DNA of 50,240 nucleotides from Candidatus Nomurabacteria bacterium (GCA_020632135.1 JACKGC010000001.1:1-50240); one strand, 5' to 3'; counted from the first letter of the stretch, positions 2,381 to 39,998 are shown. The notes: generated from the sequence alone by a model not told the origin. A program made the numbers and translations.

Positions 2381-5092
<2,712 letters not shown>

Positions 5093-6583: not shown

Positions 6584-8095
6584 ATGGCAAAAAAAGTAAA
6601 ACAAGCAGCTCCGAATGTGGTAAAGCGACCACCGGTCGTGGTGGTTATGGGTCATATTGACCACGGCAAGTCAACCCTGCTCGACACGCTCCGCATGAGC
6701 AACATTGTCGACGGCGAAGCTGGAGGTATCACTCAGCACCTCTCCGCCTACGTGGTGCCACACAAGACCAAAGATGGGGCAGAAGAAACTATCACCTTCC
6801 TCGACACTCCAGGCCACGCTGCGTTTCAAAAAATGCGCCTGCGTGGTGCTGACGTTGCTGACGTTGCCATTCTCATGGTCTCTGCTGAGGACGGCGTGAA
6901 GCCGCAGACCCTCGAAGCACTCGAGAGCATAAAAGCAGCCAACATTCCGTATGTCGTAGCCATCAACAAGATCGACAAACCAGGTGCTGACGTCCAGCGC
7001 ACCAAGAATACCCTCATCGAGAATGAGATCTACATCGAAGGCATGGGCGGCGATGTGCCATGGGCAGCTATTTCTGCTAAACAAGGCGAAGGGATCGACG
7101 AGCTACTTGATCTCGTCATCCTCGCTGCTGACCTTGCAGAGCTACGAGGCGACACCAACGCCTCAGCTGTCGGCAAGGTTATTGAGGGTAAGGTGGACCC
7201 GAAACGCGGCAACACCGCGACTCTCATCGTGACCAACGGTACCCTCAAGAGCGGGCAATTTGTCGTAGCTGGTGAAACCTACTCCCCTGTACGAATCATG
7301 GAAGATTTCCAAGGCAAGACAGTGAAGGAAGCAGGACTGTCTGCCCCAGTACGAATCGTTGGCTTTACCGATACCCCTGTAGTAGGGATCGAATTCACTA
7401 CTGTAGCGAACAAGAAAGAGGCGGAAGCAACTGTACTCGAACATAAGGCCGGCAGCGAAGCTGCCAGCCCGACCATCGCCAAAAAGAGCAATCTCCCCGT
7501 GATACCACTCCTCATTAAAGCTGATGTACTTGGTACCCTCGATGCTATTGAACACGAACTCGAGAAATTTGAATCAGACCGTATCACGGTGAAAGTGATC
7601 GACAAGGGAGTAGGTGACGTAACTGTAAATGACGTTCAGAACGTGGCCGCTACTGAAGACGCCATCATTGTTGGTTTTAGTGTAAAAGTGGAGCGCCCTG
7701 CACAAGATCTAGCCGAGCGCCTAGGAGTGGAGATCGATACTTTTGATATCATCTACGAGCTGTCTGAGTGGCTTGAGACTGCCCTGAAGAACCGCACGCC
7801 AAAGAAAGAGGAGCAGGTCGAAACTGGCAGCGTAAAGATCCTTAAGCACTTTAGTATGCAAAAGCATGTCCACGTCATGGGTGGCCGCATCGATGAGGGA
7901 GTGATCAAGCTTGGTCAAGCCGTCAAGATCCTCCGTCGCGATATCGAGATCGGTACTGGCGTGATCAAAAACCTCCAACAAGCCAAGTCAGACGTGCAAC
8001 AGGTCGAAGAAGGAGAGTTTGGTATGCAGCTTGAGACTAAGGCTGAGATCGCTCCAGGCGACTACCTCAAGCCGTATGATACTGTTATTACGTAG
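6584..8095 (+). CDS. infB: Translation initiation factor IF-2, short form lacking the long N-terminal domain
   Basis: RPPVVVVMGHIDHGKSTLLD, GGITQH, DTPGH, NKID and the C-terminal beta-barrel domains. Confidence 0.97.
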   Translation: MAKKVKQAAPNVVKRPPVVVVMGHIDHGKSTLLDTLRMSNIVDGEAGGITQHLSAYVVPHKTKDGAEETITFLDTPGHAAFQKMRLRGADVADVAILMVSAEDGVKPQTLEALESIKAANIPYVVAINKIDKPGADVQRTKNTLIENEIYIEGMGGDVPWAAISAKQGEGIDELLDLVILAADLAELRGDTNASAVGKVIEGKVDPKRGNTATLIVTNGTLKSGQFVVAGETYSPVRIMEDFQGKTVKEAGLSAPVRIVGFTDTPVVGIEFTTVANKKEAEATVLEHKAGSEAASPTIAKKSNLPVIPLLIKADVLGTLDAIEHELEKFESDRITVKVIDKGVGDVTVNDVQNVAATEDAIIVGFSVKVERPAQDLAERLGVEIDTFDIIYELSEWLETALKNRTPKKEEQVETGSVKILKHFSMQKHVHVMGGRIDEGVIKLGQAVKILRRDIEIGTGVIKNLQQAKSDVQQVEEGEFGMQLETKAEIAPGDYLKPYDTVIT

Positions 8096-32765: not shown

Positions 32766-32840
32766 GGCCCCATCGTCTAACGGCTAGGACGCCAGGTTTT
32801 CATTCTGGAAATCGGAGTTCGATTCTCCGTGGGGTCACCA
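32766..32840 (+). tRNA. tRNA-Glu (TTC), CCA encoded
   Basis: Acceptor GGCCCCA/TGGGGTC, anticodon arm CCAGG-TTTTCAT-TCTGG and GTTCGATTC. Confidence 0.95.
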
Positions 32841-34335
32841 ACGAAGATTTATCACGTTTATACTCCTCAGATAGTGAGTAAATAGGCGACAAAACAGCGG
32901 TTCCAAAACCGTTGTTTTGTGTATAAGGAATACTGCCCTCGAAAATAAAATTTTGGAACCGTAGCCTTTTTTCAGGCTGTTTTACCAATCGCTTCCAAGT
33001 ATCAGGAGTATCAATAATGAAACTTATGCAGTAATCAAGAGCGGCTTCAAAGTCTAATTCGCCACCCCGCACTTCAATCAAGTTACTTTGAGCGGCATAT
33101 AGCTGTCGTTCCACTTCTCGTTTTCGTTCTAAGAAGTCAGTCTTGGTATAGATACCCTCTTCAAAATTGTTAAAGATGGCTTTCTTTTTCTCATACAGGC
33201 TAGCGACCTGCTGTCTAACCGTCTCGTTTTGTTTTTCAGCATTGGTGTTATCTTCTCGATAAATTTCCATACACGCCTCTTTGAAAGCGTTGGCAAATTC
33301 AAAGGTAGGATTTATCTCCTCTAGAAAAGAGACAAATGATTCTTCAAGGTCTTTCTTTTTGATTGATTTAGCGTGCGGACAACCTTGTTTGTGATGATGA
33401 TAATAACCGTGCTTCTTGCCACCACGTCCAGTCGAAAAGCTACCTGTTAATGGATCATCACACCACTCGCAAGAAACCAGTCTGCGAAGTGGAAAATTAG
33501 GATTCTTTTCTTGTTTCTTTGTTCCCTTATGTGACCGTCCGGCACCTTGGCATTTATAAAATAGTGACTCAGTGACAATAGGTTCATGTTGTCCTTTGAC
33601 TTCGATGCCCCATTCATCCTTTTTCACGATACCAGCATACAGAGGGTTATGGATCATTTTTTGAATAGTTTGAAACTCAATCTTTTTGCCAGATTTTGAG
33701 CGTAGACCTTTTTCAAATAAGAGAGTGGCTAGAGTTTTGTATGTATGAGTCCCTTTCACATACTCATTGAAAGCGAGGCGGACATACTGAGCGTCGTTAT
33801 CAGGCACCATAACGCCGCCTTTTTCTAGACGTTGATAACCTGTAGGAGCCGGCCAGACCCAGATTCCTTGCTTAAGGCGTTCTCGCATACCAGTCGAGCT
33901 ACGTTCAGAGCGGATACTGTTATCAAATTCAGCTGAAGCAGACAATGTGCCCATTAAGAATTTTCCGATTGGTGATTCATCAACCGGTTCAGTAGCAGAG
34001 CGAATAGTGACACCATATTTATTAAGACTGTTTTGAACAGCGAAGTGATCGGTCTGACTACGAGAAAAGCGGTCTAATTTATATACTATGAAAAAATCAA
34101 TCTGGTTTTTCTTTTGACCACAAAATGAAATTGCTTTAAGAAACTGAGGACGATCGGCAGTTTTAGCAGATTCGCCTCGATCAACAAACACATCAGCAAC
34201 TTCTATACCTTCACGTTCGGCATATTCACGACAAATCCGCTCCTGTGATTCAAGACTAGTTCCATCCACCTGTTCGAGCGAAGACACGCGACAATAGATA
34301 ATCCCTCGCTTTCCTGTCATATCAGTATCATACAT
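32800..34335 (-). CDS. Large serine recombinase (resolvase + recombinase + Zn-ribbon domains), 511 aa
   Basis: Catalytic Ser in IYCRVSS, DRGESAKTADRPQF, VYKLDRFSR, GIWVWPAPTGY, HEPIV and CEWC...HHKQGC. The C-terminus runs into the antisense strand of tRNA-Glu. Confidence 0.95.
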   Translation of the reverse strand: MYDTDMTGKRGIIYCRVSSLEQVDGTSLESQERICREYAEREGIEVADVFVDRGESAKTADRPQFLKAISFCGQKKNQIDFFIVYKLDRFSRSQTDHFAVQNSLNKYGVTIRSATEPVDESPIGKFLMGTLSASAEFDNSIRSERSSTGMRERLKQGIWVWPAPTGYQRLEKGGVMVPDNDAQYVRLAFNEYVKGTHTYKTLATLLFEKGLRSKSGKKIEFQTIQKMIHNPLYAGIVKKDEWGIEVKGQHEPIVTESLFYKCQGAGRSHKGTKKQEKNPNFPLRRLVSCEWCDDPLTGSFSTGRGGKKHGYYHHHKQGCPHAKSIKKKDLEESFVSFLEEINPTFEFANAFKEACMEIYREDNTNAEKQNETVRQQVASLYEKKKAIFNNFEEGIYTKTDFLERKREVERQLYAAQSNLIEVRGGELDFEAALDYCISFIIDTPDTWKRLVKQPEKRLRFQNFIFEGSIPYTQNNGFGTAVLSPIYSLSEEYKRDKSSLVTPRRIELRFPE

Positions 34336-34337
34336 AG

Positions 34338-34517
34338 CTATTTTTCATCGTCCACTTCCGCTGACCCCACGGCGAATTTGGAATCACGGTCTTCTTTATA
34401 AGAATCGTATGCAAGGTGCGCCACTTCATAGATTTTTTCACGAATAAGAGCCACTTCTTCATCAGAAGCATTAGCGAGTTTAGGTTCTATTTCTCTAAGA
34501 TGCTTAAGGCTCATCAT
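34338..34517 (-). CDS. Small helical protein (59 aa) coupled to the recombinase; possible directionality factor
   Basis: MMSLKHLREIEPKLANASDEEVALIREKIYEVAHLAY. It overlaps the Rep stop and ends 2 bp before the recombinase start. The function is inferred. Confidence 0.55.
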   Translation of the reverse strand: MMSLKHLREIEPKLANASDEEVALIREKIYEVAHLAYDSYKEDRDSKFAVGSAEVDDEK

Positions 34518-35289
34518 GGTTAATCTTGTATTTGCGATAGGTGGCACGACCAAACCACTTTGTGTTGTATTCGCGTGAGACTTCAGGCTCAGAATCAACC
34601 CCTAATTCAAAGAGAATGCGATCGGCACTGAAGTTCCCCGTAAACACTTCAGGACGAATGATATTGCGAGAAGCGGTGTATGCTTTTTGATTCTTGAGAC
34701 GCGGGTCTTCATAGGCTTTGGTTAGATATTTAGCTAGGTACCCAGCCAACGCCCCTGCTCCATCTGTTCTTTTGAGATCGACAAAACCATGGCTCCAGAT
34801 TTGTGCCACGGTACGATTTTCCCTCTCCAGAAGAAAAAGTTCTTCGGGTAACCCCCAGAGGAAAGCGTGGAAATGTACGGCGCCACGTTCTTGAAATTCT
34901 GGGACGCATAGGTACTTAAAGTCATGCCCGAACTTGCGTCTGAGAGATTGCGCAAAAGCTGAGTAGTGTTTATACGCCGCACTAAGGTCGGTGAAATTGC
35001 TCCCGTAGGTAAGTGTAGCCAGTAGAGGTGGTGCAGATCCTCTCCCGAGGTTAGCTGAAACAAGCCTTCGGAAAGCCATGCTAGCGCGCCACGCGTTATC
35101 GGATCGGCGCCCCACTTTTTCTTCACTGTCCCCGGTCTGAAGTGAATCCTCTCTGCTAGTTCCCAAATTATCATTGCTAATAGCTGACGACCGCCGGCCT
35201 GCGCGTCCGTCATGGTTTCGTATAAGATCATGTTCGTATTCATTTATTTCGACATAATCGCCGTATGTAGTTACTTTGATGTATGACAT
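34504..35289 (-). CDS. Rolling-circle replication initiator (HUH endonuclease, two-tyrosine type), 261 aa
   Basis: Motif I ATLTY, motif II EFQERGAVHFH and motif III YLAKY (Y-x3-Y). Confidence 0.88.
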   Translation of the reverse strand: MSYIKVTTYGDYVEINEYEHDLIRNHDGRAGRRSSAISNDNLGTSREDSLQTGDSEEKVGRRSDNAWRASMAFRRLVSANLGRGSAPPLLATLTYGSNFTDLSAAYKHYSAFAQSLRRKFGHDFKYLCVPEFQERGAVHFHAFLWGLPEELFLLERENRTVAQIWSHGFVDLKRTDGAGALAGYLAKYLTKAYEDPRLKNQKAYTASRNIIRPEVFTGNFSADRILFELGVDSEPEVSREYNTKWFGRATYRKYKINHDEP

Positions 35290-35632: not shown

Positions 35633-36250
35633 ATGAAAAAGTTGATTACAAAAGCAGATGTTCTAATGTTTGTCATTGGACTACTTCTGGGAGCCATTAT
35701 CTCAGGTATTTTTTTCGCACCTGAAAAAACACAAGTTATATTAAGTAGTTTTCAAGCTATGGCAGTAACTTTAGTAACTATTTTTACGGCTTGGTGGACA
35801 TCTAAAACGTTCGGTCATGAACTTAGATCAAGGGAAGCAAAAGAAATTCTAGGCGTGCTGCTTTCCATGAGAAATTGTGTTAACGAAATTACAAACCCCA
35901 TTGCCTCTATGCCAATTATTGGCAAAGAAGCAACTATGGATAATTTTATGGAGAAATGGGAAGAAAACAAGGAAAAGGTCAGTGAAGAGGCTTGGTATAG
36001 ATATCTGGGCCACAAAGGAGTATTAAAGGAAATAACTGAAAAGTCTGTTGCACTAAAACCATTTACACGTATGCAACTACTTATGATTGGTGACTTCAAA
36101 GATGACATGAAAAATATTAAAGAAGACAATGGCCAAAAACTGACGAAGGACATAATTGCCTTGCAAGCAAAGATTGCTAGAGAGGCACACTTTGATGTTG
36201 GCATAGAGGTTACAAGAATCAGGAACAAATTGGGTCTTTGGTTTTCTTAG
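35633..36250 (+). CDS. Hypothetical cargo protein with two N-terminal TM helices, 205 aa
   Basis: AT-rich ORF with two hydrophobic helices followed by a charged helical domain. Confidence 0.75.
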   Translation: MKKLITKADVLMFVIGLLLGAIISGIFFAPEKTQVILSSFQAMAVTLVTIFTAWWTSKTFGHELRSREAKEILGVLLSMRNCVNEITNPIASMPIIGKEATMDNFMEKWEENKEKVSEEAWYRYLGHKGVLKEITEKSVALKPFTRMQLLMIGDFKDDMKNIKEDNGQKLTKDIIALQAKIAREAHFDVGIEVTRIRNKLGLWFS

Positions 36251-36371
36251 CCGCCCTTACCCCGCCCTTCACACCGCTCACAAGCTCGCGGCGCGAAGCT
36301 CCGCAGGCGGGCGCGACTAGTGCGGGCGGCTTTAGTCAAGTGCAACTGCTGCGTCGACAAAAAATGTATAT

Positions 36372-37235
36372 ATGATAAAATCACAGGCAATGCATCAAAC
36401 AACTAACAAAAACAAGGTCGTAAGCCAACCAAAGCAAGAAAAATTGATAGGACAAGAGGAAAAGTTACCAATTAATGATTTTGTTGTTGGTAATGCAGTA
36501 GAGGTAATGAAAAGTTTCCCTGAAGGATCTATAGACCTTGTTGTGACATCACCGCCGTACGATGAATTAAGAGATTACAAGGGTTATCATTTTGATTTTG
36601 AAGGGATGGCAAAAAGCCTTTACGCAGTCATGAAAAAAGGTGGGGTTGTTATTTGGGTTGTTGGAGACAAAATTAAAAATGGTAACAAAAGCTTAACCAG
36701 CTTTAAGCAAGCACTGCTTTTTCAACAGGTCGGATTCAATGTGCATGATGTGATGATATACAAGAAAAAGAACACACCATTTATGCGATCAAACGCATAC
36801 ACAAATTGTTATGAGTTCATGTTTGTTTTCACAAAGTCATCACCAAAAACCTTTAATCCATTAAAAACAAAAACTGTAAGACAAGGTATTGAGCCACTTC
36901 CACATAACAAAGGAGCAGATGGTGTAAATAAAAAAATTAAGAAAGAGCTCAAGCCAGAAAAAACTTTAACAAATATATGGGAATATGCGGTTGGACTACA
37001 TGGATCAACCAGCGATAGAATTGCTTTTGAACACCCCGCAATCTTCCCAGAGAAACTTGCTGAAGACCATATACTCTCGTGGTCGGAAGAAGGAGATGTT
37101 GTATTTGACCCAATGTGTGGATCGGGAACAACATGTAAGATGGCTATGTTGAACAATAGAAACTACATTGGCTGTGATATTTCTGAAGAATACGTTGAAA
37201 TAGCTAAAAAACGTCTACACGAGCACAAAGACTAG
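36372..37235 (+). CDS. Beta-class amino (probably N4-cytosine) DNA methyltransferase
   Basis: Catalytic DLVVTSPPY near the N-terminus, HPAIFP, and SAM-binding FDPMCGSGTT near the C-terminus. Confidence 0.93.
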   Translation: MIKSQAMHQTTNKNKVVSQPKQEKLIGQEEKLPINDFVVGNAVEVMKSFPEGSIDLVVTSPPYDELRDYKGYHFDFEGMAKSLYAVMKKGGVVIWVVGDKIKNGNKSLTSFKQALLFQQVGFNVHDVMIYKKKNTPFMRSNAYTNCYEFMFVFTKSSPKTFNPLKTKTVRQGIEPLPHNKGADGVNKKIKKELKPEKTLTNIWEYAVGLHGSTSDRIAFEHPAIFPEKLAEDHILSWSEEGDVVFDPMCGSGTTCKMAMLNNRNYIGCDISEEYVEIAKKRLHEHKD

Positions 37236-37810
37236 CTTCCACTAATAAATCTAATTGCTCTGTTAAGGATTCCGACATCATCCTTAAATCTACCCAGACC
37301 TGTATTACAACTATCACAAACCCAACCTCTAATCTCACCATTTTTATGATCATGTTCTAAAACGACCTTACTGGTTACACCAGCAATGGTTCTTTTACCA
37401 CAAATAGGACATTCGAAAGGAACTCGGTTTGGTTTTGTTTTTTGCCACTCTTTCCAATCAGACTTATCCATCTTCTTTCCGTCTATATGTTTTCGACAGT
37501 AAGAACATGAGGGTCTCCTTACGACCCTATTATTAACACCAGTCTGATTTGGTTCAAAATCGCTTGTATTTTTAAGCTTGTGGCAAACATTGCAAATCTT
37601 CTTTGAAAACCCATCTCCTGTTTTGGTTTCATCAAATATCTCTACCGATGAACATGGGACAACAATATCCTTCCAGGCAGTAATAAAAAAGACTGTACAG
37701 CTATCGCCATCTGAACTCTTTAATAATCCGACGTCATGAACCCCTACAAACTCTCCGTTTGAAGTAGATATATCATGTTTTGCATATAAAAAATCTTCAT
37801 CACCATTCAT
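37232..37810 (-). CDS. Hpy99I-like type II restriction endonuclease (beta-beta-alpha-Me), 192 aa
   Basis: TGDGFSKKICNVCHKLK, NQT..RPSCSYCRKHIDG, CPICGKRTIAGVT, HDH and WVCDSCNTGLGRFKDD follow the Hpy99I architecture as I recall it. It is convergent with the MTase and overlaps it by 4 bp. Confidence 0.85.
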   Translation of the reverse strand: MNGDEDFLYAKHDISTSNGEFVGVHDVGLLKSSDGDSCTVFFITAWKDIVVPCSSVEIFDETKTGDGFSKKICNVCHKLKNTSDFEPNQTGVNNRVVRRPSCSYCRKHIDGKKMDKSDWKEWQKTKPNRVPFECPICGKRTIAGVTSKVVLEHDHKNGEIRGWVCDSCNTGLGRFKDDVGILNRAIRFISGS

Positions 37811-37985
37811 GTAATGATTCTACCATCTTATTAAAAATTTACTGTGTGTACTTGTTTAACAATACGGTTCCAAATCGCTCCCCGTAGGATCACACTACTT
37901 GCTTTTTGTACAAAAGCGTGCTTTTATCCTACTGGCTGAAAATCAGAGTGTTTCTGATTAGCACTTTTACAGGAGACAGTTCATT

Positions 37986-38231
37986 GTGGACAAAGCAAAT
38001 CTGCGAAACCCGCACGAGCCCGACGGCTTCAAAACCTCCAGTATTACCCGCAAAGGTGCCATCAAAGTCTGTGTGGCCGTCAAGATCGGCGACGACTCAG
38101 TCGAGGTTCGCGACACCAAGGGCGTGAACAGTCCGACACTGTCCTTCACCCATCCGGAGTGGGAGGCCTTCATCGGCGGCGTGAAGCTCGGGGAGTTCGA
38201 CCTCTCCGCCAAGGCAACCAAGGCCGCATAA
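37986..38231 (+). CDS. DUF397-family small protein, 81 aa
   Basis: FKTSS...CVAV...VEVRDTK...LSFTHPEWEAFIGGVKLGEFD matches the DUF397 pattern. Confidence 0.8.
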   Translation: MDKANLRNPHEPDGFKTSSITRKGAIKVCVAVKIGDDSVEVRDTKGVNSPTLSFTHPEWEAFIGGVKLGEFDLSAKATKAA

Positions 38232-38304
38232 CCTAGCGGTTCGTCATCCTCTCTAGTGGAGAATCTGAAATATGATTCTCCACTTTTTTGTATATAATTC
38301 AACC

Positions 38305-38850
38305 ATGAAACTTTATTTAATCCCGGCGTATCAAGAAACAATTCGTAATCAAGGATATCGTCGTATCATCACTGCAGCAGAAAAAGCTGGCTACGGGGTT
38401 GAGATTTTGAATTTACAGATTCAAAACCGGAAATTTAATGAGGTGATTGCTGAGGGAATTGAAATGATCAACCGGAGCACTAGTGAGCCAAAAGCAATTC
38501 TAGGCTTTTCAACGGGAGCGCTAATCGCTTATCAAATTGCCACTAAAATTAGGTTTGAGAAAGCCTTTTTTTGTTCCCTGTCTCCTCTGCTAGAGGATGA
38601 CATCCCTAAAACTATCACTCCATACGTTAGGTACTTTGGTAAAGAAACCGTCCTAGATCTCAAGAAACAAAAATATGGGACTTCATTAGCAAATGAAACC
38701 TTCTTTTTTACCGGCGATCATGAGGGTAGAAAGCTGATTAGCAGAACAAAAACACTGGCAGTAAAAAATGATGGGAATTTAATTGTAATTAAAGACAACG
38801 ACCACGAGCTGAACAGAGATTACACTAAAGAGATATCACTAAAGTTGTAA
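38305..38850 (+). CDS. Small alpha/beta-hydrolase-fold protein
   Basis: Nucleophile elbow GFSTG and a C-terminal DH (candidate catalytic His). Confidence 0.65.
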   Translation: MKLYLIPAYQETIRNQGYRRIITAAEKAGYGVEILNLQIQNRKFNEVIAEGIEMINRSTSEPKAILGFSTGALIAYQIATKIRFEKAFFCSLSPLLEDDIPKTITPYVRYFGKETVLDLKKQKYGTSLANETFFFTGDHEGRKLISRTKTLAVKNDGNLIVIKDNDHELNRDYTKEISLKL

Positions 38851-38968
38851 ATGGGTGTTATAACCCGGTTCCAAAACGTACTACTTAGGGTCCCATAGAT
38901 TCAAAAAGCCTGGGACACGAAGTGTCCCAGGCTTTTTGTTACATGCTGACTATTCGGGTTGTTTGTCA

Positions 38969-39883
38969 TTACCTTGAATCATAATAGACCTCCTTTGTAA
39001 CCACATCTACCACCCAAAATCGCTCAATAGGGTCGCAGTATGCAATAACACCCTTAGCGTCAGTGTACGCTTCTACAGTATCGCCAGCAAAGTTTGAAGT
39101 GCCTGAACCGTAATAGCCACTTAGCTTAAGCAAAGCGCCCGACAAAGGATATCCTTCGGTATCCTCTGTAATCACTTCCGTACAACCCTCATCGTCTATC
39201 TCTCCAAATCGAACAACATACTCCCGGGGTGCTTGAAATTTTCCAAAGTAACTATCTTCCACTGCTCCAATCTTAGCAACTATTTCATAATTGTACTTCT
39301 TGCTTTCAGACAAAGCGTTGATGATAACAAAATGCTCAGTGGAATCTGAATTATTAGAATTGAATACTTCTTTCTCATCTAGAATCAAACGGGAATCAGA
39401 CGCCAGGGTTGTCTCCCAATCTATGCGAATGAGGTTTTCTTCTTCATCAATAACGTGCTCAACATTGATTACCTTTAAATCTGTATTCTCTGTCACTAAC
39501 GTGTCGGGCTCATTTTGTGCCTCATTGGCAGCCGCTACTTCTGGCTGAGTACTGACTGGTGCCTGGGGCACATACACTACTCTCTCTTGCACGACCGTCT
39601 CTACTTTAGGTGCAGATGCAACAACAGAATTTTCTACAAGACTCACGGACACATCCGCTTCAGAATCGCGTCCATCAAGAGTATCGCTTTGCTTCATCGC
39701 CTCTAACTCTGCTTCCAAACGGTCGATCTTTTCATTTCTCTCAAACTCGAGCTGTGTCAACAACTGATGATTCTCCGAACTGATCTGATTGTATTTGTAA
39801 ACGCCATATCCGGCTCCACCAATCACAAAGACCGACACAATAACTGCCGCAACGACCTTCAGTAAAATAGCGTGTCTGCTCAT
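38969..39883 (-). CDS. Membrane-anchored surface protein with a coiled coil, low-complexity linker and FN3-like domain
   Basis: N-terminal TM helix, then IDWETTLASDSRL...TEHFVIINALSESKKYNYEI, which is FN3/PAP-N-like. Confidence 0.65.
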   Translation of the reverse strand: MSRHAILLKVVAAVIVSVFVIGGAGYGVYKYNQISSENHQLLTQLEFERNEKIDRLEAELEAMKQSDTLDGRDSEADVSVSLVENSVVASAPKVETVVQERVVYVPQAPVSTQPEVAAANEAQNEPDTLVTENTDLKVINVEHVIDEEENLIRIDWETTLASDSRLILDEKEVFNSNNSDSTEHFVIINALSESKKYNYEIVAKIGAVEDSYFGKFQAPREYVVRFGEIDDEGCTEVITEDTEGYPLSGALLKLSGYYGSGTSNFAGDTVEAYTDAKGVIAYCDPIERFWVVDVVTKEVYYDSR

Positions 39884-39998
39884 CACCCACACAATACAAT
39901 TAATTACTTTTTAATCAAGCGTCCAAAACACACACCTGTTTAGTAGTGGTTACTCCACATGCCATAACACCATCTCGCAAACCTGCTATACTCTCTCC

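What the first reader, a model, noticed from the sequence alone, without database searches (positions are those of the whole stretch)
32800..32920. The recombinase C-terminus runs through a symmetric att-like site and into the antisense of tRNA-Glu
SEEN: the last 13 codons (VTPRRIELRFPE-stop) are the reverse complement of the tRNA 3' half. Inside the gene, ACAAAACAGCGGT-TCCAAA-ACCGTTGTTTTGT (32889-32920) is a 12/13 inverted repeat. Its centre CGGTTCCAAA recurs at 37865-37874 and, as 12 bp, at 38866-38877. The 37865 copy is followed by a degenerate tRNA-Glu-like end (about 15/20) and a hairpin. INFERENCE: the crossover lies within the recombinase gene, so integration and excision swap the enzyme's C-terminal tail, which could act as a built-in directionality switch. 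The third copy marks an older nested module (DUF397 + hydrolase).
Basis: partly seen in the sequence, partly recalled or inferred. Interest (0 to 1): 0.6.

Follow-up and report, generated by a model that had tools for sequence, protein, structure and literature searches.

The report
Serine integrase gene spanning its attachment site

Summary
The observations hold. The 511-aa large serine recombinase (LSR, 32800-34335, minus strand) ends antisense in tRNA-Glu. The 12/13 palindrome is real. CGGTTCCAAA occurs 4 times within 6 kb against 0.11 expected.

- **Crossover position.** It is not at the palindrome. It lies about 60 nt away in the tRNA acceptor end, most likely T71-C72 (32835-32836).
- **Far-end sites.** The copies at 37866 and 38867 are the far-end arms (attR type). 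Each carries a T-loop mimic, GGTTCCAA, placed exactly 5 bp further from the core than the real T-loop is in the tRNA. This is the attP/attB zinc-ribbon-motif shift known for serine integrases.
- **Joined reading frame.** Joining those arms to the LSR 3' end keeps the frame open in 14 of 14 sites from 10 loci and reads a conserved WN(Q/R)-helix tail.
- **Real genes with that tail.** Public proteins at 30-54% identity carry this tail uninterrupted, about 28 of 140. About 96 of 140 carry antisense-tRNA tails.
- **Where relatives diverge.** Relatives 68-85% identical diverge exactly after SSLV.

So the tail swap is real, much as in phage Mx8 IntP/IntX. A directionality-switch role remains untested. 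This scan has already noted the family on other DNA. My literature searches found no description of it.

The parts
32766..32840 (+). tRNA-Glu(UUC), which is attL. The B arm is the tRNA body, with the T-loop GTTCGATTC at 32817-32825. The encoded CCA (32838-32840) is supplied by the element.
   Evidence: ARAGORN. Only 4 of 33 tRNA genes in this genome encode CCA, and 2 of those abut LSR genes. Native tRNA-Glu genes in relatives without the LSR end ACAG, ACAC, ACGC or ACAA.
32835..32836 (+). Predicted crossover dinucleotide T71-C72 in attL (possible range 32832-32838).
   Evidence: This is the intersection of the tRNA/attR identity blocks over 10 elements. It places GTTC(C/G)A at half-site positions 11-19 in the tRNA and 16-24 in the P arm, as for LI integrase. 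Inferred, not shown.
32800..34335 (-). Large serine recombinase gene, integrated form (P0001, 511 aa). Residues 501-511 (TPRRIELRFPE, 32803-32835) are encoded by antisense tRNA.
   Evidence: Pfam Resolvase 1.9e-31 and Recombinase 1.2e-15. The homologue model matches SPbeta, Bxb1, phiC31 and LI integrase structures.
32837..32898 (.). P' arm plus spacer. It encodes the conserved ...LSPIYS...SSLV end of the LSR.
   Evidence: Its length is constant at 57-58 nt, and it is homologous in elements on four tRNA types.
32889..32920 (.). Palindrome 'd' (codes TQNNGFGTAVLS). It is not the crossover. It is invariant at the DNA level in close relatives. Role unknown.
32952..32961 (-). Inverted fourth copy 'e' of CGGTTCCAAA (codes RFQN). 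Its codons are also invariant.
34338..34598 (-). Small ORF (86 aa) between Rep and the LSR, conserved in the element core. It is a candidate directionality factor. At 34362-34377 it holds an inverted 15/16 copy of the tRNA 3' end.
   Evidence: tblastn finds it in five related elements. Inverted repeat I9. Its C-terminal motif DSKFAVGS is conserved as protein. No Pfam or PHROG match.
34504..35289 (-). Rolling-circle replication initiator (RepSA / G2P-like).
   Evidence: Pfam PF23343 1.9e-20 and PF20199 3.1e-10. phrog_3419 2.3e-29.
35633..37810 (.). Cargo: an unknown 205-aa ORF (35633-36250, +), an N6/N4 DNA methylase (36372-37235, +) and a His-Me / endonuclease VII nuclease (37232-37810, -).
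37831..37893 (-). attR-type site 'b'. The P arm has the T-loop mimic GGTTCCAA at 37866-37873 and the core TC at 37890-37891. Read on the minus strand after joining to the LSR 3' end, it encodes the alternative tail ILRGAIWNRIVKQVHTVNF*.
37986..38850 (+). Distal module: a GC-rich DUF397 gene (37986-38231) and an alpha/beta-hydrolase-like gene (38272-38850).
   Evidence: Pfam. Atlas neighbours are mostly from Actinomycetota.
38820..38894 (-). attR-type site 'c'. GGTTCCAA lies at 38867-38874 and the core TC at 38891-38892. The alternative tail reads TLSSTFWNRVITPIYNFSDISLV*. A native-like tRNA flank and a strong terminator (38902-38938) follow.
   Evidence: Its flank resembles the native tRNA-Glu flank of G003.

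Best explanation
**The element.** This is a small integrative rolling-circle element. It carries an LSR, an 86-aa ORF, a Rep gene, a methylase with a nuclease, and possibly the DUF397/hydrolase module. It is inserted at the very end of tRNA-Glu.

**The sites.**
- attL is the tRNA itself. The exchange most likely occurs at T71-C72 (32835-32836). The element supplies the last bases and the CCA.
- attR is the site at 37866-37893 and/or the site at 38867-38894.

**How the sites are probably recognised (inferred).** The integrase is proposed to read the universal T-loop (GTTCGA) as the zinc-ribbon-domain motif of attB. It is proposed to read a mimic, GGTTCCAA, placed 5 bp further out, as the same motif in attP.

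**Consequence for the gene.** attP lies inside the LSR gene.
- The free circular form encodes a longer enzyme whose last 20-30 residues (x6-WN(Q/R)-helix) are encoded at the element's far end.
- Integration replaces them with 11 residues of antisense tRNA.

**Shown versus inferred.**
- Shown: the layout, the constant spacing, the open joined frames, real genes carrying either tail, and divergence of close relatives after SSLV.
- Inferred: the exact dinucleotide, T-loop reading by the zinc-ribbon domain, and any effect of the tail on activity.
For: 1. In 10 of 10 related loci with a detected tRNA, the LSR 3' end overlaps a tRNA in antisense (Glu, Arg, Met, Ala). Two further loci without a called tRNA also end in antisense-T-arm-like tails.
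2. The spacer from the CCA to GGTTCCAA is 57-58 nt and homologous in all of them, so it is element DNA.
3. CCA is encoded in only 4 of 33 tRNA genes in this genome. It is absent from most native tRNA-Glu genes of relatives.
4. Fourteen distal sites from 10 loci read GGTTCCAA (two of them with one mismatch). Exactly 22 nt then follow, ending in a tRNA-specific acceptor end (Glu, Arg or Met). The corresponding distance in the real tRNA is 17 nt.
5. A 5-bp shift of the zinc-ribbon motif between attP (positions 16-24) and attB (positions 11-19) is the published rule (PMC3783163).
6. Joined frames stay open in 14 of 14 sites and give WN(Q/R)(L/I/V)... tails. In one clade L, E, L, W, F and G are conserved while their codons vary (CTA/TTG/CTG/TTA; GGT/GGC/GGG/GGA).
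7. Of 140 full-length representatives, about 96 have antisense-tRNA tails. Sixteen match strictly, and about 12 more loosely, an uninterrupted ...LV-x6-WNxIIxEL tail. P0027 is 54% identical to the integrated L051 LSR up to the junction, and it then carries the tail I predicted for L051.
8. P0004, P0008, P0010 and P0011 (68-85% identical) diverge right after SSLV.
9. The AlphaFold2 model of P0027 has mean pLDDT 92.6. Its tail forms helices 497-506 and 508-522 at pLDDT about 94.
Against: - No empty site or circular junction of this element itself was recovered.
- The nearest relatives are too diverged or hold other inserts.
- The right-hand arms (P', B') show no mirrored GGTTCCAA, so the sites are asymmetric.
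- The acceptor-like parts of sites b and c (TAGGATC, TAGGGTC) do not match the local tRNA (TGGGGTC).
- Site b differs from attL at position 70, and site c differs at position 73. It is therefore unclear which site is the active partner, or whether this copy can still excise.
- In this element's own subclade the tail is less conserved, and some close relatives have 3-residue tails (MNC*, MKY*).
- Extra invariant GGTTCCAA copies inside the gene (d, e) are unexplained.
Confidence: 0.75

Rival explanations
1. First reader's model. The crossover is at the centre of the palindrome (32898-32907), paired with 37865 or 38866. About 35 C-terminal codons, together with the tRNA-proximal 57 nt, would then be host DNA.
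For: The 10-12 nt identity among the three sites is far above chance. The palindrome looks like an attP.
Against: The 57-58 nt spacer is homologous LSR coding sequence at four different tRNA types. Uninterrupted homologues carry FGT...SSLV before the alternative tail. Close homologues diverge after SSLV, not after FGT. Joining at this point gives ...NGFGTVLLNKYTQ*, which deletes a conserved segment.
Confidence: 0.04
2. The junction is as in the best explanation, but the tail swap has no function. The enzyme effectively ends near SSLV, and the ORF simply runs on to the next stop in either state.
For: Some close relatives have 3-residue tails (MNC*, MKY*). The tail in this subclade is only loosely conserved. 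The WN residues can be explained by the DNA motif alone.
Against: In the sister clade, tail residues beyond the DNA motif are kept while their codons vary. Tails with this motif persist down to about 30% identity. The tail helices are modelled with high confidence.
Confidence: 0.3
3. Sites b and c are ordinary displaced tRNA 3' ends, that is, direct repeats left by islands that cross over in the T-loop. They would not be integrase arms.
For: Their tails resemble tRNA-Glu ends. True displaced ends of this kind do exist nearby in relatives (G006 L005, G022 L043:7069, G086 L053).
Against: All 14 sites carry the same 5-nt longer spacing and the non-tRNA motif GGTTCCAA. Identity to the local tRNA is often only 7-10 nt at the acceptor end. 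The joined frame is coding.
Confidence: 0.05

Closest known systems
Large serine integrases of phages and islands (Listeria A118/LI, Bxb1, phiC31, SPbeta SprA)
   Same: Resolvase, recombinase and zinc-ribbon/coiled-coil architecture. Short asymmetric att sites. The outer recognition motif lies 5 bp closer to the centre in attB than in attP (PMC3783163). The homologue model matches PDB entries 9dxh, 9iu2, 9rah and 4kis.
   Different: The target is the acceptor end of tRNA genes, with the T-loop as the apparent outer motif. attP lies inside the integrase gene. The element is a 5-6 kb rolling-circle replicon, not a phage. The post-coiled-coil region extends about 100 residues to the C-terminus.
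Myxococcus phage Mx8 IntP/IntX
   Same: attP lies within the integrase coding sequence. Integration next to a tRNA gene creates a gene with a new 3' end and an altered enzyme (PMC6070905, citing PMC178153, PMC93896 and PMC93897).
   Different: Mx8 Int is a tyrosine recombinase on a 49-kb phage. Here the enzyme is a serine recombinase, and no effect on activity has been measured.
SSV1-type fusellovirus integrases (own knowledge)
   Same: attP lies inside the int gene, so integration into a tRNA gene partitions the gene.
   Different: These are archaeal tyrosine recombinases, and the gene is split into two large parts rather than losing a short tail.
pSAM2-type actinomycete integrative elements and streptococcal integrative mobilisable elements
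   Same: Small elements that combine a rolling-circle Rep with a site-specific integrase and a tRNA target.
   Different: pSAM2 uses a tyrosine integrase and carries transfer genes. No transfer gene was found here.
Tycheposons of Prochlorococcus
   Same: tRNA-targeting cargo elements with replication genes. 27 of 937 carry a large serine recombinase (10.1101/2020.12.28.424599).
   Different: They are mostly tyrosine-recombinase elements. The text I read reports no integrase gene spanning attP.

Membership tests
Large serine recombinase (serine integrase) | N-terminal resolvase catalytic domain with a serine nucleophile | tested here: met
   PF00239 at 1.9e-31 over residues 12-158, with the motif YCRVSS. 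Y, R, V and S are invariant in alignment A1.
Large serine recombinase (serine integrase) | Recombinase domain followed by a zinc ribbon with an inserted coiled coil | tested here: met
   PF07508 at 1.2e-15. PF13408 is recorded on close homologues. The model of homologue P0027 shows zinc-ribbon strands followed by long paired helices 347-423, and it matches full-length SPbeta, Bxb1 and phiC31 integrases at E 1e-11 to 1e-18.
Large serine recombinase (serine integrase) | Outer (zinc-ribbon) DNA motif shifted 5 bp between attP and attB half-sites | tested here: met
   GGTTCCAA lies 22 nt from the acceptor end in 14 far-end sites. GGTTCGAT lies 17 nt from it in the tRNA. The rule comes from PMC3783163. 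Binding itself was not tested.
Large serine recombinase (serine integrase) | 2-bp staggered crossover at a central dinucleotide shared by the sites | not testable with these tools
   I could only narrow it to T71-C74 from the shared cores.
Mx8-like integrase whose gene spans attP | attP lies inside the integrase ORF, so the prophage form has a different C-terminus | tested here: met
   Joined frames, homologues with either tail, and divergence after SSLV.
Mx8-like integrase whose gene spans attP | Tyrosine recombinase chemistry | tested here: not met
   The enzyme is a serine recombinase. It works like Mx8 in layout only.
Mx8-like integrase whose gene spans attP | The two forms differ in activity or specificity | not testable with these tools
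   This needs biochemistry.
AICE (pSAM2-type) | FtsK/Tra-type transfer gene and a tyrosine integrase | tested here: not met
   Only a RepSA-like Rep is shared. No Tra gene was found, and the integrase is a serine recombinase.

The most novel reading that the evidence does not exclude
The integrase's zinc-ribbon domain reads the universal tRNA T-loop as its attB motif and a 5-bp-shifted mimic as its attP motif. This would let the family hop between tRNA species by retuning only the acceptor-proximal bases. The C-terminal helix, encoded across attP, would act as a state sensor. Only the free circle makes the full enzyme, and the integrated copy makes a helix-less form with different directionality or stability. 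That would be a serine-integrase directionality control built into the DNA layout rather than into a separate factor.
Probability: 0.25. Interest if true: 0.8.

Novelty: new variant of a known kind. Interest (0 to 1): 0.55.

Why it matters
Serine integrases are widely used genome-engineering tools, and their one-way behaviour is thought to depend on coiled-coil contacts plus a separate directionality factor. Three points would make this family useful if the model holds:
- An enzyme whose own C-terminus changes with its integration state is a natural test of whether directionality or stability can be encoded in the site layout itself.
- A T-loop-reading zinc-ribbon domain would explain how these elements retarget among tRNA genes.
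- It would add to what little is known of how gene cargo, here a methylase/nuclease pair and an Actinomycetota-like gene, moves in ultra-small CPR bacteria.

Tried and rejected
- I could not fetch the DNA of the 5.5-kb contig that encodes P0010, a possible free circle, or strain-level empty sites.
- **Collection scans.** The single metagenome scan gave only 4 loci, all integrated. The viral-contig scan gave none.
- **Empty sites in relatives.** G019 and G014 hold decayed elements. The LSR is deleted, a relic of the small ORF abuts the tRNA, and the far-end sites are kept. G086 holds two unrelated ~190-nt mini-elements.
- **Mirrored motif.** I looked for a mirrored TTGGAACC in the P' or B' arm at the expected distance and found none.
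- **Motif pair d/e as a full site.** Their 46-bp gap does not fit attP (30 bp) or attB (20 bp).
- **Inverted tRNA-like copy at 34362-34377 as an internal spare attP.** Earlier notes of this scan describe such copies. Its spacing fits neither arm type. It stays Glu-like in the tRNA-Arg element and lies in a conserved peptide, so I do not claim it.
- **Crossover in the T-loop.** Rejected, because the joined frame and the constant 22-nt spacing require the exchange to lie on the acceptor side of the 5-nt difference.
- **Mis-specified pattern.** The pattern had the wrong spacing and found nothing.

Full report
**Observation.** The window holds tRNA-Glu(UUC) at 32766-32840. A 511-aa ORF lies on the opposite strand at 32800-34335 and ends ...SSLVTPRRIELRFPE*. 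Its last 13 codons are antisense to the tRNA 3' half. Pfam finds Resolvase (1.9e-31) and Recombinase (1.2e-15) domains, so this is a large serine recombinase (LSR).

The 12/13 palindrome at 32889-32920 is real. It folds far better than shuffled sequence (z = -4.85). CGGTTCCAAA occurs four times, at 32898, 37865 and 38866 on the plus strand and at 32952-32961 on the minus strand. Only 0.11 are expected. The region from 32.8 to about 39.9 kb is low in G+C, 0.37-0.45 against about 0.50 outside.

It encodes the following genes:
- the LSR;
- an 86-aa ORF;
- a rolling-circle Rep;
- an unknown 205-aa ORF;
- a DNA methylase;
- a His-Me/endonuclease VII nuclease;
- a GC-rich DUF397 gene and a hydrolase-like gene.

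**The overlap is a family trait.** The genome is about 0.74 Mb and 67% complete. Its relatives are 0.6-1.2 Mb, which fits an ultra-small Patescibacteria lineage. In the genus, 64 of 127 genomes hold LSR relatives. In 10 of 10 loci with a detected tRNA, the LSR 3' end runs antisense into a tRNA: Glu-CUC or Glu-UUC, Arg-UCU, Met, Ala. Two further loci without a called tRNA also end in antisense-T-arm-like tails.

**Where the left junction is.**
- The stretch between the tRNA CCA and the first GGTTCCAA is 57-58 nt in every case. It is homologous coding sequence whichever tRNA is the target. It therefore belongs to the element, and the left junction cannot be at the palindrome.
- Every tRNA-Glu and tRNA-Arg next to one of these LSRs encodes CCA. 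Native tRNA-Glu genes in relatives without the LSR mostly end ACAG, ACAC, ACGC or ACAA.
- In this genome only 4 of 33 tRNA genes encode CCA, and two of them abut LSR genes.
- So the exchange lies within the tRNA, 5' of C75.

**The far-end sites.** Fourteen far-end sites come from 10 loci: this window (two sites), G006, G121, G120, G066, G022, L049 (two), L050 and L051, plus relic sites in G019 and G013.
- All read GGTTCCAA, with one mismatch in two of them. Exactly 22 nt then follow, ending in an acceptor end specific to the local tRNA type (Glu GGGTCA, Arg GGGGCACCA, Met CCGCAACAATA).
- In a real tRNA the T-loop GGTTCGAT is 17 nt from the same point. The motif is therefore always 5 bp further out at the far-end site.
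- This is the published difference between attP and attB half-sites of serine integrases, where the zinc-ribbon motif sits at positions 16-24 and 11-19 respectively (PMC3783163).
- The identity blocks between each tRNA and its far-end site intersect at T71-C74. A crossover at T71-C72 puts GTTC(C/G)A exactly at those published positions.
- In this window that is 32835-32836 (attL), 37890-37891 (site b) and 38891-38892 (site c). The dinucleotide is inferred, not shown.

**The integrase gene spans attP.**
- I joined each far-end arm to the LSR 3' end. In 14 of 14 sites the frame stays open for 12-45 codons and reads x6-WN(Q/R)(L/I/V).... WN is GGTTCCA read in antisense.
- In the G120/G066/L049/L050/L051 clade the tail reads WNQLVxELxxWxxFG. 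Leu, Glu, Leu, Trp, Phe and Gly are kept while their codons vary, which is the mark of protein-level selection. That selection can only act when the two ends are joined.
- Public proteins confirm both states. Of 140 full-length representatives at 30-46% identity, about 96 end in antisense-tRNA tails (LVxPxG(I/F)EP...). Sixteen match strictly, and about 12 more loosely, an uninterrupted LV-x6-WNxIIxEL... tail.
- P0027 is 54% identical to the integrated L051 enzyme up to the junction. It then carries almost the tail I predicted for L051.
- Four proteins 68-85% identical to this window's enzyme or its nearest relative diverge immediately after SSLV.
- An AlphaFold2 model of P0027 has mean pLDDT 92.6. 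It places the tail as two helices (497-506 and 508-522) at pLDDT about 94. The model matches solved SPbeta, Bxb1, phiC31 and LI integrases.

**What this means for the window.**
- The integrated enzyme ends V500-TPRRIELRFPE.
- The free form would end V-ILRGAIWNRIVKQVHTVNF if site b is the partner, giving a circle of about 5.06 kb.
- It would end V-TLSSTFWNRVITPIYNFSDISLV if site c is the partner, giving a circle of about 6.06 kb that includes DUF397 and the hydrolase.
- Site c shares GGGTC with attL and is followed by a flank and terminator that resemble the native tRNA-Glu flank of G003. Site b shares TCAC.
- I cannot say which site is active, or whether this copy still moves.

**What remains unexplained.**
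- The palindrome and the inverted copy at 32952 lie in coding sequence (FGTA and RFQN). Their codons are invariant in five genes whose other conserved residues use 2-3 codons. This points to a DNA- or RNA-level role. It could be extra integrase binding or a hairpin that stops read-through from the tRNA; I have no test for either.
- The right-hand arms lack a mirrored motif.
- An inverted 15/16 copy of the tRNA end sits in the small ORF. Its spacing fits neither arm type.

**Comparison and novelty.**
- The layout works like phage Mx8, where attP lies in intP and integration makes a gene with a new 3' end (PMC6070905). The enzyme here is a serine recombinase, not a tyrosine recombinase.
- tRNA-targeting elements with LSRs have been reported among tycheposons, without this feature in the text I read.
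- Six literature searches found no description of the family.
- Earlier notes of this same scan describe the family on other DNA, including the tail swap and the T-arm imitation. I used them as leads and tested the claims here independently.

**Limits.** No circle junction or empty site of this element itself was seen.

Noticed in passing
window 37986-38231: The DUF397 gene is much richer in G+C than the surrounding element. Its nearest protein-atlas clusters are mostly from Actinomycetota. It may be a recent transfer into a CPR element.
   Followed up: partly
proteins P0029, P0031, P0037, P0040, P0042, P0070, P0076, P0079, P0098: Many uninterrupted (free-form) integrase tails end in -AA (IAA, VAA, MAA, LAA, NAA). 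This recalls an ssrA-type C-terminal degradation tag. The tails in this window's clade do not.
   Followed up: no
whole genome G000: Only 4 of 33 tRNA genes encode CCA: Glu-UUC at 32766, Arg-CCU at 79237, Arg-GCG at 375402 and His at 419183. The first two abut serine recombinase genes. The other two were not examined.
   Followed up: partly
L053 (G086:C19), about 3900-4330; also L005 (G006:C3) and L043:6880-7090: Protein-less inserts of about 190 nt lie behind tRNA-Arg, Glu and Met. Each ends in a displaced tRNA end that starts in the T-loop, and each holds an antisense copy of that end. G086 has two in tandem. This is a different system from the LSR element.
   Followed up: partly
L016/L044 (G019:C2) and L003 (G014:C4): These relatives have lost the LSR gene. 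A relic of the small ORF's 3' end lies about 40 nt from tRNA-Glu. One or two small membrane-protein cassettes follow, each ending in a far-end site with the WNRIVKQV-coding arm.
   Followed up: partly
window 34362-34377: An inverted 15/16 copy of the tRNA-Glu 3' end lies inside the 86-aa ORF, just upstream of the LSR start. It is conserved as the peptide DSKFAVGS in relatives, including the tRNA-Arg element.
   Followed up: partly
window 37810-37833: In the joined (circular) form, the integrase stop would lie about 20 nt upstream of the nuclease gene start on the same strand. Integration therefore also separates the nuclease gene from transcription coming out of the integrase gene.
   Followed up: no
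L039 (G120:C19), oriented 6967-7656: The gene that lies upstream of tRNA-Glu in this window has its G120 homologue on the other side of the element and in the opposite orientation. This suggests a local inversion.
   Followed up: no
window 38969-39950: A 307-aa ORF with no family match and low G+C lies outside site c, before the conserved DUF2127 gene. It may be an older island remnant.
   Followed up: no
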